Of a stretch of DNA of 5,373 nt, positions 1,466 through 3,844 are shown in pieces (within the stretch, counting starts at the first letter, position 1; the number at the start of each line of letters is the position of its first letter). Origin of the DNA: a virus (Duplodnaviria > Heunggongvirae > Uroviricota > Caudoviricetes); IMG/VR virus record IMGVR_UViG_2778261389_000002, positions 1 to 5,373 of that record, one strand, 5' to 3'. Made by a program: the position numbers and the translations under genes. The notes beneath the pieces are model-generated. The model did no database searches. It was given only the letters and a program-made list of their open reading frames with translations, and was not told the DNA's origin.

Positions 1466-1491
1466 CAATTATAGCAATCAATTAGAGCAAT
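1466..1491 (-). promoter_or_regulatory. ref promoter (-10 TATAAT) overlapped by a C1 operator (Op2-like)
   Basis: Minus strand has a perfect TATAAT (rc of 1468-1473). Immediately upstream, ATTGCTCTAATTGATTG (rc of 1475-1491) matches the C1 operator consensus at 14/17 with the 11-bp core perfect. Ref is known to be C1-repressed in P1. Confidence 0.65.
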
Positions 1492-1517
1492 TAAAGTTAT
1501 TTATCGCGAATCACATT

Positions 1518-1979: not shown

Positions 1980-3011
1980 CTAATCGCCATCTTCCAGCAG
2001 GCGCACCATTGCCCCTGTTTCACTATCCAGGTTACGGATATAGTTCATGACAATATTTACGTTGGTCCAGCCACCAGCTTGCATGATCTCCGGTAGTGAA
2101 ACTCCGGCGCGGGCCATATCTCGTGCGGCTCCGACACGGGCACTGTGTCCAGACCAGGCCAGGTACCTCTGGCCAGAGTCATCCTTAGCCCCGTAAATCA
2201 ATCGGTGAGTTGCTTCAAAAATCCCTTCCAGGGCGCGAGTTGATAGCTGGCTGGTGGCAGATGGCGCGGCAACACCATTTTTTCTGACACGGCAAAACAA
2301 GTAGTTATTCGGATCATCAGCCACACCAGAGACAGAAATCCATCGCTCAACCAGTTTAGTTACCCCCAGACTAAGTGCCTTCTCTACACCAGCGGTGCTA
2401 ACCAGCGTTTTCGTTCTGCCAATATGGATTAACATTCTCCCACCGTCAGTACGTGAGATATCTTTAACTCTGATCCTAGAAATTTCGGCTATACGTAACA
2501 GGGTGTTATAAGCAATCCCCAGAAATGCCAGATTACGTATATCCTGGCAGCGATCGCTATTTTCCATGAGTGAACGAACCTGGTCGAAATCAGTGCGTTC
2601 GAACGCCAGCGCCTGTTTTGCACGCTCACCGGCATCAACGTTTTCTTTTCGGATCCGTCGGATGACCAGTGAAACAGCATTGCTGTCACTTGGTCGTGGC
2701 AGCCCGGACCGACGATGAAGCATATTTAGCTGGCCCAAATGTTGCTGGATAGTTTTCACTGCCAGACCGCGCGCCTGAAGATATAGAAGATAATCGCGAA
2801 CATCTTCAGGTTCTGCGGGAAACCATTTCCGGTTATTCAACTTGCACCATGCCGCCCATGACCGGCAAACGGACAGAAGCATTTTCCAGGTATGCTCAGA
2901 AAACGCCTGGCGATCCCTGAACATATCCATCAGGTTCTTGCGAACCTCATCACTCGTTGCATCGACCGGCAATGCAGGCAAATTTTGGTGTACGGTCAGT
3001 AAATTGGACAT
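1980..3011 (-). CDS. cre: Cre site-specific tyrosine recombinase
   Basis: 343-aa ORF (MSNLLTVHQNLPALPVDATSDEVRKNLMDMFRDRQAFSEH...MVRLLEDGD) recognised as P1 Cre over its full length. Catalytic-region motifs are present (GHSARVGAARD, GGW, NYI). loxP lies 419 bp upstream. Confidence 0.97.
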   Translation of the reverse strand: MSNLLTVHQNLPALPVDATSDEVRKNLMDMFRDRQAFSEHTWKMLLSVCRSWAAWCKLNNRKWFPAEPEDVRDYLLYLQARGLAVKTIQQHLGQLNMLHRRSGLPRPSDSNAVSLVIRRIRKENVDAGERAKQALAFERTDFDQVRSLMENSDRCQDIRNLAFLGIAYNTLLRIAEISRIRVKDISRTDGGRMLIHIGRTKTLVSTAGVEKALSLGVTKLVERWISVSGVADDPNNYLFCRVRKNGVAAPSATSQLSTRALEGIFEATHRLIYGAKDDSGQRYLAWSGHSARVGAARDMARAGVSLPEIMQAGGWTNVNIVMNYIRNLDSETGAMVRLLEDGD

Positions 3012-3018
3012 TTGACAC

Positions 3019-3240
3019 TCAGATAATGGTTTTAAGTAAAGTGTACAGGATCGGCTCTGCCTTTACCTGTTTATGGTTCTCGTCATAGAAACGCCAACGA
3101 CCGCGACTGCGTTCTATCTTTTCTTCACCGCGCGATAATGACAGTTGACAACTATCACGATCAAACCCTTTCGCCCGCCAGTAACCACGATTTTTCTCAA
3201 GCTCAAGATGAGTGGACACTTTAGCAGCTGAATATCCCAT
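3019..3240 (-). CDS. small ORF (73 aa) directly upstream of cre
   Basis: ATG at 3238-3240 is preceded by SD GAGGTGA at about 4-nt spacing; the stop at 3019-3021 is 7 nt before the cre ATG. The product is basic with no recognisable domain. It could be a real leader ORF or a chance ORF in the cre regulatory region. Confidence 0.35.
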   Translation of the reverse strand: MGYSAAKVSTHLELEKNRGYWRAKGFDRDSCQLSLSRGEEKIERSRGRWRFYDENHKQVKAEPILYTLLKTII

Positions 3241-3337
3241 TTTTCACCTCTGATTGATTGGTGGTGCTAAGTGCGCTACGCGAAATCTGGAGCACTAACA
3301 CTGCCAACATTTCGCAGATTTTACGTAGCGCAACCTT

Positions 3338-3410
3338 GATCAAATGATCAAGTGATCACTATTTGACCTGATAAGGTATTGAGCTGTATGGATTTACAGG
3401 TAAATTGATC
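3338..3410. promoter_or_regulatory. Dam (GATC) site cluster in the cre regulatory region
   Basis: GATC at 3338, 3346, 3354 and 3407; the first three sit in reiterated TGATCA hexamers within 20 bp. P1 cre promoters are reported to be methylation-sensitive. Confidence 0.5.
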
Positions 3411-3429
3411 ATGTTCAATAACCCTTAAG

Positions 3430-3463
3430 ATAACTTCGTATAATGTATGCTATACGAAGTTAT
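3430..3463 (+). other. loxP: loxP site (Cre recombination target)
   Basis: Exact 34-bp ATAACTTCGTATA-ATGTATGC-TATACGAAGTTAT: two 13-bp inverted arms around an 8-bp asymmetric spacer. Confidence 0.97.
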
Positions 3464-3506
3464 TAGGTCTGAAGAGGAGTTTACGTCCAGCTGCGCATAA
3501 AAATCA

Positions 3507-3523
3507 AGAATTATTAGAGCAAT
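3507..3523 (-). promoter_or_regulatory. C1 operator (Op99 family), minus orientation
   Basis: rc of 3507-3523 is ATTGCTCTAATAATTCT, 15/17 against the consensus ATTGCTCTAATAAATTT. Confidence 0.7.
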
Positions 3524-3583
3524 AAATTTTGAGAGAAAAATCCCACTCCACCAGCCAAAAACTGGATTGTTTTTCATAGTTGT

Positions 3584-3610
3584 TTGACAATTGCTCTAAT
3601 AAATTATAGT
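3584..3610 (+). promoter_or_regulatory. immC promoter (P99-like) with overlapping C1 operator
   Basis: -35 TTGACA at 3584-3589 is followed by ATTGCTCTAATAAATTA (3590-3606, 16/17 to consensus) and -10 TATAGT at 3605-3610. It is oriented toward coi and c1, consistent with autoregulation. Confidence 0.75.
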
Positions 3611-3844
3611 TTTGCCGCCGTTACGTAATACGACTTTGGATTCACTATTTAATGTGTCTTCAGCGTTGTAGAGCGGCTCAGAAGGAAATGAGCAAACAGG
3701 GAAACCTTATACAACGGCATTACAGCTATGCATTGCTCATCTTACACACAGCGCAATGTTGTTAGATTACCCCAGCATGGATCATGGGTGAAACAGTAGG
3801 TCAGAGCTTCAGGCTCTGTGTTGTCAATACAGTGAGGCATAATT

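What the first reader, a model, noticed from the sequence alone, without database searches (positions are those of the whole stretch)
3268..3410. Long imperfect palindrome and reiterated TGATCA Dam sites in the cre leader
TGCGCTACGCGAAAT (3272-3286) is mirrored by ATTTCG...CGTAGCGCA (3309-3331) with a 9-nt bulge, giving a two-segment inverted repeat of about 60 bp. Three TGATCA hexamers within 20 bp and a fourth GATC follow it. Together they lie upstream of the 73-aa ORF and cre and could couple cre expression to methylation state or form a leader RNA structure or protein-binding site.
Basis: partly seen in the sequence, partly recalled or inferred. Interest (0 to 1): 0.4.

Follow-up and report, generated by a model that had tools for sequence, protein, structure and literature searches.

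The report
Conserved two-armed element upstream of cre
The TGATCA run is the already published Dam-methylation switch of a phage P1 cre promoter, but the palindrome next to it is an unannotated control element with a rigid 25-bp gap that recurs upstream of Cre-type recombinase genes in many bacteria.

Summary
The window is the immC–loxP–cra–cre region of a P1/P7-like phage-plasmid. Both observations are real. The GATC/TGATCA sites are the annotated "Dam methylation sites within the regulatory region of cre"; two of them lie in or next to the -35 of promoter pR1/P3cre (Sternberg 1986). That part is already known.

The palindrome is better read as a gapless 18/25/18 inverted repeat, 3272-3289 and 3315-3332, matching at 16 of 18 positions. 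Its lox-side arm carries the annotated pR1 -10 hexamer (TAAAAT). No feature is annotated on the repeat itself in the P1, P7 or X03453 records.

It is not specific to P1. The same element, (GCGC)TACGYRAAWTCTG–N25–CAGAWTTYRCGTA(GCGC), occurs in:
- 35 of 41 Cre homologues (39-44% identity) collected without reference to it;
- phage JK004;
- Alteromonas, Pantoea, Pseudomonas and Serratia genomes;
- more than 1100 Klebsiella plasmids.

The gap is 25 bp in 68 of 75 cases and never outside 25-27. The element ends 36-39 nt before the first start codon.

Most likely it is a rigidly spaced two-armed DNA operator that limits transcription into cra–cre. The binding protein is unknown. A leader-RNA hairpin is a close rival.

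The parts
3272..3289 (.). Gene-side arm of the inverted repeat. On the minus strand it reads CAGATTTCGCGTAGCGCA. The 13-nt core is 3277-3289 and the outer GC clamp is 3272-3276. The core ends 36 nt before the cra ATG.
   Evidence: Identical in the window, P1 and P7. 2 rare variable sites among 54 P1-like haplotypes. This is the better conserved arm across Cre-type cassettes.
3290..3314 (.). 25-bp spacer. Its length is fixed but its sequence is free. The pR1 start point inferred from the annotated -10 falls here, at about 3311.
   Evidence: 12 of 25 sites vary among 54 P1-like haplotypes, against 4 of 36 in the arms. Spacer length is 25 in 68, 26 in 6 and 27 in 1 of 75 elements when any spacing from 0 to 80 was allowed. 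The start point is an inference from the -10 annotation.
3315..3332 (.). lox-side arm of the inverted repeat. On the minus strand it reads TGCGCTACGTAAAATCTG and contains the pR1/P3cre -10 hexamer.
3318..3323 (-). -10 hexamer TAAAAT of promoter pR1 = P3cre (annotation transferred from P1 positions 124-129).
   Evidence: The window-P1 alignment has no gaps here.
3338..3343 (-). -35 hexamer TTGATC of pR1 = P3cre (P1 104-109). It holds one GATC. X03453 gives an alternative -35 at 3346-3351.
3337..3358 (.). Three TGATCA hexamers at an 8-bp period (GATC at 3338, 3346, 3354). These are Dam sites of the cre regulatory region. P1 has GACC at the third, while P7 and this window have GATC.
   Evidence: The third unit is mutated or lost in 6 of 54 haplotypes.
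3406..3411 (.). Fourth TGATCA, annotated as 'Dam methylation site 1' of the cre regulatory region. It abuts the -10 of P2coi.
3382..3401 (.). LexA box (CTGTATGGATTTACAG at 3384-3399). It overlaps the plus-strand promoter P2coi (3379-3406).
3430..3463 (.). loxP (13-8-13), 103 bp from the core of the inverted repeat.
3478..3523 (-). P4cre (-10 TAAACT at 3478-3483, -35 TTGATT at 3502-3507) with its C1 operator Oc1e/Op99e (3507-3523). Transcripts from here cross loxP and contain the whole inverted repeat.
   Evidence: identical to P1 over the ~100 aligned nt
3019..3240 (-). cra (73 aa), the first gene after the element. Its SD sequence GAGGTG is at 3246-3251.
   Evidence: No Pfam family.
1980..3011 (-). 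cre (343 aa)

Best explanation
The palindrome is P1's copy of a conserved cis-element of Cre-type lox-recombinase cassettes. It has two inverted arms of about 17 bp, (GCGC)TACGYRAAWTCTG, separated by a spacer whose length (25 bp) is fixed and whose sequence is free. It sits between the lox site and the first start codon of the recombinase operon.

I propose it acts on double-stranded DNA as a two-armed operator. The arm centres lie about 42 bp apart, roughly four helical turns, so both arms face the same side of the helix. In P1 the lox-side arm covers the -10 of the Dam-sensitive promoter pR1/P3cre. The gene-side arm lies at about +20 to +40. A protein holding both arms would therefore close pR1 and also block transcripts arriving from the C1-controlled P4cre upstream of lox, keeping Cre low.

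The protein is not identified. The recombinase itself is the first suspect, because it is the only gene that always travels with the element, and because the arms read outward resemble lox half-sites.

The TGATCA run is a separate, already known device. It forms the -35 region of pR1, and its methylation by Dam modulates that promoter.

Shown here: the element, its geometry, its conservation and its position. Taken from annotation or literature: the promoters and the Dam regulation. Inferred: operator function and the identity of the binding protein.
For: 1. Non-chance and conserved. The 16/18 repeat is reached in 1/300 shuffles. The arms are identical in the window, P1 and P7 while the spacer differs at 6 sites. 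Among 54 P1-like haplotypes, 4 of 36 arm sites vary against 12 of 25 spacer sites.
2. Found without looking for it. A search seeded only with Cre-like proteins returned 42 metagenome loci at 39-44% identity. 35 of the 41 with upstream sequence carry the element just before the gene. It is also in JK004 and in 35 species-level genomes across Enterobacterales, Alteromonadales, Pseudomonadales and others. The recombinase is the only conserved neighbour.
3. Rigid spacing with a free sequence. With any spacing from 0 to 80 allowed, the gap is 25 bp in 68, 26 in 6 and 27 in 1. Spacer sequences are unrelated between lineages.
4. Arm sequence, not only complementarity, is conserved. Most arm columns are invariant across 64 diverse copies, while three stem positions are unpaired in 27-40% of them. 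The spacer is found in both orientations relative to the gene, which a symmetric DNA site tolerates.
5. It overlaps a promoter in P1. The annotated pR1 -10 lies inside the lox-side arm.
6. The gene-side arm survives alone in phage D6, which points to a sequence-specific role for one arm.
7. Arms read outward match lox half-sites of the same cassettes better than position-shuffled controls do: 4.2 against 2.7 +/- 0.34 over the first 10 positions, 0/2000 shuffles.
Against: - No binding protein is identified, and I could recall no host-factor consensus that fits the arms (comparisons from memory, not a database scan).
- lox arms differ strongly between cassettes while the element arms do not. This argues against recognition by the same specificity surface of the recombinase.
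- The lox resemblance amounts in effect to one consensus-against-consensus comparison (7-8 of 13 positions).
- The core arm ends a constant 36-39 nt before the first ATG. That is easier to explain for a feature of the mRNA leader than for an operator.
- The element is transcribed in full from P4cre in P1, and from a conserved promoter-like site abutting lox in other cassettes. Both strands fold stably.
- Substitutions at the two YR positions give G-U wobbles preferentially on one strand: consensus fold -18.8 against -7.3 kcal/mol.
- Copies without an adjacent recombinase exist: Klebsiella plasmids and chromosomal sites.
- D6, with a working Dre/rox system, lacks an intact repeat.
Confidence: 0.4

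Rival explanations
1. Leader-RNA hairpin. Transcripts that start upstream of the element fold it into a long stem about 20 nt upstream of the ribosome-binding site. In P1 these come from P4cre when C1 is absent; in other cassettes they would come from the lox-abutting promoter-like site. The stem would tune mRNA stability or translation, for example as an RNase III target or a 5' stabiliser. Transcripts from pR1, which start inside the spacer, would escape this control.
For: - P4cre lies upstream of lox and reads toward cre.
- In the 247-nt leader from the start point inferred for P4cre (about 3471) the hairpin is kept in the minimum-energy fold (-75.1 kcal/mol, z = -5.4).
- Local folds are -32.4 kcal/mol (minus strand) and -26.6 kcal/mol (plus strand, z = -4.7). 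In other cassettes they are -35 to -49 kcal/mol.
- There is a constant 36-39 nt between the arm and the first ATG.
- A stem survives inversion of the loop.
- A wobble-only substitution pattern appears on one strand.
- The outer, less conserved flanks are complementary within sequences more often than in shuffles.
Against: - A 25-nt loop of fixed length and free sequence is not expected for a hairpin.
- Stem sequence is conserved far beyond what pairing needs. No fully compensatory pair changes appear in the 13-nt core, and 17/64 copies carry an A-A mismatch at one core position.
- The better-pairing strand is antisense to the recombinase in most cassettes but sense in P1.
- No Rfam family matches.
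- One arm alone is kept in D6.
Confidence: 0.3
2. No function of its own in P1. The arms are kept because one of them is the pR1 core promoter and the rest is an inherited relic of an ancestral cassette. Self-homogenisation of the palindrome maintains the symmetry.
For: - The annotated pR1 -10 lies in the arm.
- The TA variant that makes TAAAAT occurs in one arm or the other in many lineages.
- D6 does without an intact repeat.
- The cra region is listed as non-essential for plaque formation.
Against: - The gene-side arm, which carries no annotated promoter element, is the better conserved one.
- Both arms, the spacing and the position are conserved across recombinases only 24-44% identical.
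- Most relatives have TGAAAT or TGAATT, which lack the A at position 2 of the hexamer (-11), in place of TAAAAT.
Confidence: 0.12
3. Single-stranded-DNA hairpin used during plasmid transfer or replication (a priming signal or ssDNA promoter), which happens to sit next to resolution modules.
For: - In more than 1100 Klebsiella plasmids the element lies in a long non-coding stretch upstream of psiA, next to other long hairpins, i.e. in a leading-region-like context.
- One strand pairs better than the other.
- Alteromonas loci carry a second degenerate copy about 1 kb away across non-coding DNA.
Against: - The stem (at most 21 bp) is too short to hold both -35 and -10, as Frpo-type promoters do.
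- P1 has no known single-stranded stage at this locus.
- The orientation of the better-pairing strand is not tied to any replication or transfer direction that I could define.
- The tight link to the recombinase start codon is left unexplained.
Confidence: 0.07
4. ParB-type binding site. The arms contain GTGAAAT/ATTTCAC, the P1 ParB 'box A' heptamer, so the element could be a secondary centromere-like or silencing site.
For: - P1 parS carries box A as ATTTCAC, ATTTCAA and GTGAAAT.
- Most copies of the element have ATTTCAC in at least one arm.
Against: - In P1 itself both heptamers are mismatched (ATTTTAC, ATTTCGC).
- Box B (TCGCCA) is absent and no IHF site is evident.
- The other 6-10 conserved arm positions are unexplained.
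- A 7-mer match is weak after the many motifs I tried.
Confidence: 0.03

Closest known systems
P1 cre promoter pR1 (= P3cre) and its Dam sites (Sternberg, Sauer, Hoess & Abremski 1986, J Mol Biol 187:197; GenBank X03453, AF234172, AF503408)
   Same: Same DNA. The -35 TTGATC at 3338-3343 contains a GATC and the -10 TAAAAT is at 3318-3323. The records list the GATC sites as Dam sites of the cre regulatory region.
   Different: None of the three records annotates the inverted repeat. The window has the P7 pattern (four GATC) rather than the P1 pattern (three).
Accessory or autoregulatory recombinase sites: Tn3/gamma-delta res subsites II-III overlapping the tnpR promoter; mini-F D protein (ResD) acting as both resolvase and repressor (own knowledge, Lane et al. 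1986)
   Same: A recombinase cassette carries, next to the crossover site and over its own promoter, extra inverted half-sites with non-catalytic spacing. The only conserved gene is the recombinase. The arms weakly resemble lox half-sites.
   Different: Binding of Cre-type enzymes to the element is untested. The half-sites point outward and lie 25 bp apart. The arm sequence does not co-vary with the lox arms.
loxP and lox-like sites (13-8-13)
   Same: 13-nt inverted arms ending in TA. The element lies 65-230 bp from a lox-like site in most cassettes that have one.
   Different: The spacer is 25 bp, not 8. The arm polarity is everted. The arm sequence is constant while lox arms diverge (ATAACTTCGTATA, CTGGCCTTATATA, TTCACGCATGATA). 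Published target-site screens searched only 8-bp gaps.
Leader or retroregulatory RNA hairpins of recombinase genes (lambda sib/RNase III control of int; own knowledge)
   Same: A long stem in a transcript of a recombinase gene, formed only in read-through RNA from one promoter and not from another.
   Different: It lies upstream of the gene, not downstream. There is no evidence of processing. The conserved sequence and fixed loop length are atypical for such hairpins.
P1 pac site hexamers TGATCA/G (Sternberg & Coulby 1990)
   Same: The same hexamer is reiterated at short intervals. Around the annotated pac cleavage points the hexamers run TGATCAtTGATCA...TGATCA...TGATCA, and then TGATCG...TGATCA...TGATCA.
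   Different: The locus and context differ (a promoter -35 rather than a packaging site). No evidence links pacase to the cre leader.

Membership tests
Dam-methylation-sensitive promoter | GATC inside or abutting a promoter hexamer | tested here: met
   GATC 3338-3341 lies inside the annotated -35 (3338-3343). GATC 3346-3349 lies in the alternative -35.
Dam-methylation-sensitive promoter | Promoter activity changes between dam+ and dam- hosts | not testable with these tools
   Reported for P1 in the title of Sternberg et al. 1986. The paper itself is not held.
Operator (protein-binding inverted repeat at a promoter) | Two-fold symmetric conserved half-sites with fixed spacing | tested here: met
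Operator (protein-binding inverted repeat at a promoter) | Overlap with core promoter or early transcribed region | tested here: met
   In P1 this holds by annotation transfer. It is not shown for other cassettes.
Operator (protein-binding inverted repeat at a promoter) | Identified cognate DNA-binding protein | tested here: inconclusive
   The only conserved neighbour is the recombinase. Cra has no Pfam family and is absent elsewhere. The lox half-site resemblance is weak.
Structured cis-regulatory RNA | Compensatory base-pair changes supporting a fold | tested here: inconclusive
   The 13-nt core has no double-sided changes except at one position (AU 38, UA 9, unpaired 17). The outer flanks show an excess over shuffles. 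Wobbles are confined to one strand.
Structured cis-regulatory RNA | Match to a curated RNA family | tested here: not met
   Rfam 15, E-value mode: only chance-level hits such as mir-137 at E = 1.7.
Intrinsic terminator | GC-rich stem with a short loop, followed by a T run | tested here: not met
   No terminator-like site in 2950-3700 on either strand. The loop is 25 nt and no T run follows in P1.
lox-type recombination site | 13-bp inverted arms around a 6-8 bp crossover spacer | tested here: not met
   The spacer is 25-27 bp in all 75 copies.
Frpo-type ssDNA promoter or ssi signal | Hairpin stem long enough to carry both -35 and -10 | tested here: not met
   The stem is at most 21 bp.
P1-type parS | Box A heptamers together with box B hexamers around an IHF site | tested here: not met
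   Only box-A-like heptamers are present, each mismatched in the window. There is no TCGCCA.

The most novel reading that the evidence does not exclude
Cre-type recombinases have a second natural DNA target in their own leader. It consists of two outward-facing, non-recombinogenic lox-like half-sites held exactly 25 bp apart, through which the enzyme shuts off its own synthesis. This autoregulatory module would be conserved from P1 to Alteromonas and retained as an orphan site on more than 1000 Klebsiella plasmids.
Probability: 0.18. Interest if true: 0.75.

Novelty: new member of a known kind. Interest (0 to 1): 0.5.

Why it matters
Cre/loxP is one of the most used tools in genetics, yet the natural control of cre is known only from one 1986 promoter study and from annotation. 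A deeply conserved, rigidly spaced element sits 36 nt before the first start codon of the operon. It is present in most natural Cre-type cassettes, which suggests that tight control of recombinase level is built into the module.

If the recombinase itself binds the element, it would define a new class of natural Cre-binding sites. That would be useful for self-limiting Cre expression and relevant to off-target prediction.

The element is also a practical marker. It flags Cre-type cassettes and their remnants, for example the lox-like site without a recombinase on Klebsiella virulence and resistance plasmids. It also gives pipelines that mine new recombinase/target pairs a second anchor beside the 13-8-13 palindrome.

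Tried and rejected
- Intrinsic terminator: none found on either strand.
- Rfam families: none.
- Literal search of the arm sequences in about 8 million papers: no hit.
- oriT of Klebsiella plasmids: the published predicted nic decamers are absent within +/-3-4 kb of the element.
- Cra fused to the longer Alteromonas recombinases: no similarity.
- Frpo-like ssDNA promoter: the stem is too short.
- Integron attC-like site: the R''/R' motifs are absent by eye.
- sigma-54 look-alike in the P1 spacer (TGGCAG-N5-GTGCT): not positionally conserved in relatives.
- sigma-32 look-alike (GTGAAA-N14-CCCCT): the -35-like bases are the most variable arm positions.
- Other motifs compared from memory with no fit: LexA, CRP, FNR, ArgR, IHF, Fis, DnaA, NarL, matS, Xer/dif and Tn3 ends.
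- ParB box A: a 7-mer only, mismatched in P1.
- A sigma-70 promoter spanning the element, or lying between the element and the ATG: no conserved hexamers at proper spacing.
- Covariation as a test to separate the RNA reading from the DNA reading: inconclusive.
- Sternberg 1986 and Lobocka 2004 could not be read, so I cannot exclude that the dyad symmetry is mentioned there.

Full report
**What the window is.** The window holds cre (1980-3011, minus strand) and a 73-aa ORF (3019-3240, minus strand). It also holds a perfect loxP (3430-3463), a 69-aa and a 283-aa ORF on the plus strand, and a RecA-dependent-nuclease homologue. BLAST places it in P1-like phage-plasmids. The region is 95-98% identical to P1, P7, SJ46 and RCS47, and 100% identical to some E. 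coli plasmids. It runs opposite to P1 coordinates: P1 position x equals window 3447 - x.

**Checking the observation.** The repeat finder gives a simpler description. Arms 3272-3289 and 3315-3332 are 18 nt each, complementary at 16 of 18 positions, with 25 nt between them. Only 1 of 300 dinucleotide shuffles of the window reaches 16/18 with a 3-40 nt gap. That segment reads TTTTCA in P1, whereas the 18-nt arms are identical in the window, P1 and P7. TGATCA occurs only four times in the window. Three copies lie at an 8-bp period (3337-3358) and one at 3406-3411. Three GATC within 22 nt is seen in 6 of 300 shuffles.

**The GATC run is already explained.**
- The P1 record AF234172 annotates 'Dam methylation site 1, 2, 3 within the regulatory region of cre' at positions equal to window 3407-3410, 3346-3349 and 3338-3341.
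- The same record annotates promoter P3cre (= pR1 of Sternberg et al.), with -35 at window 3338-3343 and -10 at 3318-3323.
- X03453, the 1986 sequence, gives the same -10 and two alternative -35 hexamers, both TTGATC.
- P7 has a fourth site, equal to window 3354-3357. The window has the P7 pattern, while P1 reads GACC there.
[quoted passage not shown] I could not read the paper.
- Among 54 distinct P1-like haplotypes from IMG/VR, 48 keep three GATC, 3 have the P1 mutation, and 3 lack one 8-bp unit.

**Where the palindrome sits in P1.**
- The annotated pR1 -10 (TAAAAT on the minus strand) lies inside the lox-side arm. The start point inferred from it therefore falls in the spacer at about 3311, and pR1 RNA lacks the 5' arm.
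- The P1 record also annotates P4cre, a promoter under the C1 operator Oc1e/Op99e just upstream of lox and reading toward cre. The ~100 aligned nt covering that promoter and operator are identical in the window, which places the -10 at 3478-3483, the -35 at 3502-3507 and the operator at 3507-3523.
- RNA from P4cre crosses loxP and contains the whole repeat. In a 247-nt fold of that leader, taken from the start point inferred for P4cre (about 3471), the hairpin is kept (-75.1 kcal/mol, z = -5.4).
- Locally the minus strand folds at -32.4 kcal/mol and the plus strand at -26.6 kcal/mol.
- No terminator-like site is present, and no Rfam family matches.
- No feature is annotated on the repeat in the P1, P7 or X03453 records.

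**Population pattern in P1-like elements.** In 54 haplotypes, 12 of the 25 spacer positions vary, several at high frequency. Only 4 of 36 arm positions vary, all rare. One arm variant turns a mismatch into an A-T pair.

**The element is not specific to P1.** A weak BLAST hit covering only window 3265-3336 led to a Klebsiella oxytoca plasmid.
- The same arms with a 25-nt gap occur in 1108 Klebsiella plasmid records. They are always intergenic, downstream of a DUF1173 gene and upstream of psiA.
- An exact-pattern scan of one genome per species found 35 loci in Pantoea, Alteromonas, Shewanella, Pseudomonas, Serratia, Citrobacter, Rahnella and others.
- All-against-all comparison of neighbouring ORFs showed one recurrent neighbour: a Cre-family recombinase whose start lies 30-340 nt from the element.
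- Other neighbours are heterogeneous.

**Unbiased test.** I searched metagenome contigs with an alignment of Cre-like proteins only. Of 42 loci at 39-44% identity to Cre, one has no upstream sequence. 35 of the other 41 carry the element, two more carry a degenerate copy, and four carry none. The chance expectation for the relaxed pattern is about 5e-4 per locus (my arithmetic).
- With any spacing from 0 to 80 allowed, the gap is 25 bp in 68 elements, 26 in 6 and 27 in 1.
- The 13-nt core ends a median of 37 nt before the recombinase ATG, mostly 36-39. In P1 it ends 36 nt before the cra ATG.
- Phage JK004 (Cre 78% identical) has the element, the LexA box and paired TGATCA.
- Phage D6 (Dre/rox) keeps only the gene-side arm.

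**Cassette architecture.** Most cassettes read: lox-like 13-8-13 site, then 65-140 bp, then the element, then about 37 nt, then the gene. In Alteromonas the lox-like site lies between the element and the gene.
- In soil and Pantoea cassettes a conserved promoter-like site (CAGACA-17-TATCAT) abuts the lox arm and reads toward the gene.
- That site is followed by a palindrome holding two GATC. GATC pairs in this leader are therefore older than P1.
- Some Klebsiella plasmids keep the element plus a lox-like site about 90 bp away, but have no adjacent recombinase.

**DNA site or folded strand?** On 64 diverse copies, most core columns are invariant. Three core positions are unpaired in 27-40% of copies. 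One of these shows AU 38, UA 9 and A-A 17. The spacer has a weak oriented motif (ACCCCTGC) but occurs in both orientations relative to the gene. One strand pairs better than the other: consensus fold -18.8 against -7.3 kcal/mol. This is because transitions at the two YR positions are concentrated in one arm. That arm is also the one carrying non-wobble mismatches, so the asymmetry is not clean evidence for pairing.
- For a double-stranded protein site: fixed spacing with a free sequence, conservation of arm sequence, tolerance of spacer inversion, and survival of one arm alone in D6.
- For a leader hairpin: the constant distance to the start codon, guaranteed transcription from an upstream promoter, and stable folds.
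- I rate the operator reading at 0.40 and the RNA reading at 0.30.

**Who might bind.** The recombinase is the only conserved gene of the cassette. Read outward, the arms (CAGAWTTCACGTA) share 6-8 of 13 positions with lox half-sites of the same cassettes. Over the first 10 positions the match is 4.2, against 2.7 +/- 0.34 in position-shuffled controls. Because the lineages are related, this is in effect one comparison, so it is a lead and not a result. The arms do not co-vary with the lox arms. Cra has no known family and is absent from the other cassettes I examined, except a 72-aa ORF at the same position in JK004 that I did not compare.

**Literature.** The pipeline that mined new Cre-type systems searched only palindromes with an 8-bp gap. 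A literal search for the arm sequences found nothing. I could not read the two key subscription papers.

**Verdict.** The Dam-site half of the finding is already known. The palindrome half is real and functional by conservation. It is not annotated in the three GenBank records examined. It belongs to a widespread, apparently undescribed cis-element of Cre-type cassettes whose mechanism remains to be shown.

Noticed in passing
window 3337-3358; P1 pac region L286:1720-1895: The TGATCA hexamers of the cre leader are the same motif as the reiterated TGATCA/G hexamers flanking the annotated P1 pac cleavage points. There are four on one side (the first two 7 nt apart) and at least three (TGATCG, TGATCA, TGATCA; a further TGATCG lies ~20 nt beyond) on the other.
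   Followed up: partly
window 3337-3358 in IMG/VR loci L019, L026 and plasmid hits H65-H70: The 8-bp TGATCAnn unit varies in copy number. Three of 54 haplotypes lack one unit. Some plasmid matches are 8 bp longer or shorter than the query, which suggests slippage at the Dam-site run.
   Followed up: partly
IMG/VR loci L058 and L083 (aligned to window ~3430-3465): Two P1-like contigs show a gap of about 35 nt exactly over loxP, while the P4cre/operator region and the cre leader are intact.
   Followed up: no
L084:3008-3190, L086:4004-4184, L096:28-203 (Klebsiella plasmids): The element plus a lox-like 13-8-13 site (AACACATTGAATA-N8-TATTCGAAGTGTT) lie about 90 bp apart. No recombinase gene lies beside them; a DUF1173 gene is on one side and about 0.8 kb of non-coding DNA with long hairpins and psiA on the other. 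This may be the 28-bp plasmid-fusion site reported for pLVPK-like plasmids (PMC8299605), but I did not verify that.
   Followed up: partly
L090:4870-4970, L101:5880-5975, L102:4212-4275, L112:6073-6123 (Alteromonas): A second, degenerate copy of the element lies 0.9-1.1 kb from the first. In the two loci checked for ORFs (L101, L102) the DNA between the copies has no ORF longer than 52 aa.
   Followed up: partly
L165-L203, about 100-180 nt upstream of the element (e.g. L168:1297-1345): A conserved promoter-like site CAGACA-17-TATCAT overlaps the end of the lox-like arm. It is followed by a palindrome GGATCCGG-g-CCGGATCC with two GATC that co-change in some lineages (GGATCTGG/CTAGATCC).
   Followed up: partly
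window 3384-3399: A LexA box CTGTATGGATTTACAG lies between loxP and the Dam-site run and overlaps the plus-strand promoter P2coi. It is annotated in P1 and P7 and conserved in JK004.
   Followed up: partly
window 1478-1500, 1948-1968, 3507-3523, 3588-3606: Four C1-operator-like sequences (ATTGCTCTAAT / ATTAGAGCAAT cores). Only the copy at 3507-3523 was checked against P1 annotation (Oc1e/Op99e).
   Followed up: partly
L288:211-1281 (phage JK004): In JK004 the gene that starts 42 nt after the element is a 356-aa ORF. It is followed by a 72-aa ORF and then cre, so the first gene after the element differs between P1-like phages.
   Followed up: no
window 3241-3271: In the predicted leader fold, a CACC at about 3258-3261 pairs with the GGUG of the cra Shine-Dalgarno sequence. 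This is a small possible SD-sequestering stem.
   Followed up: no
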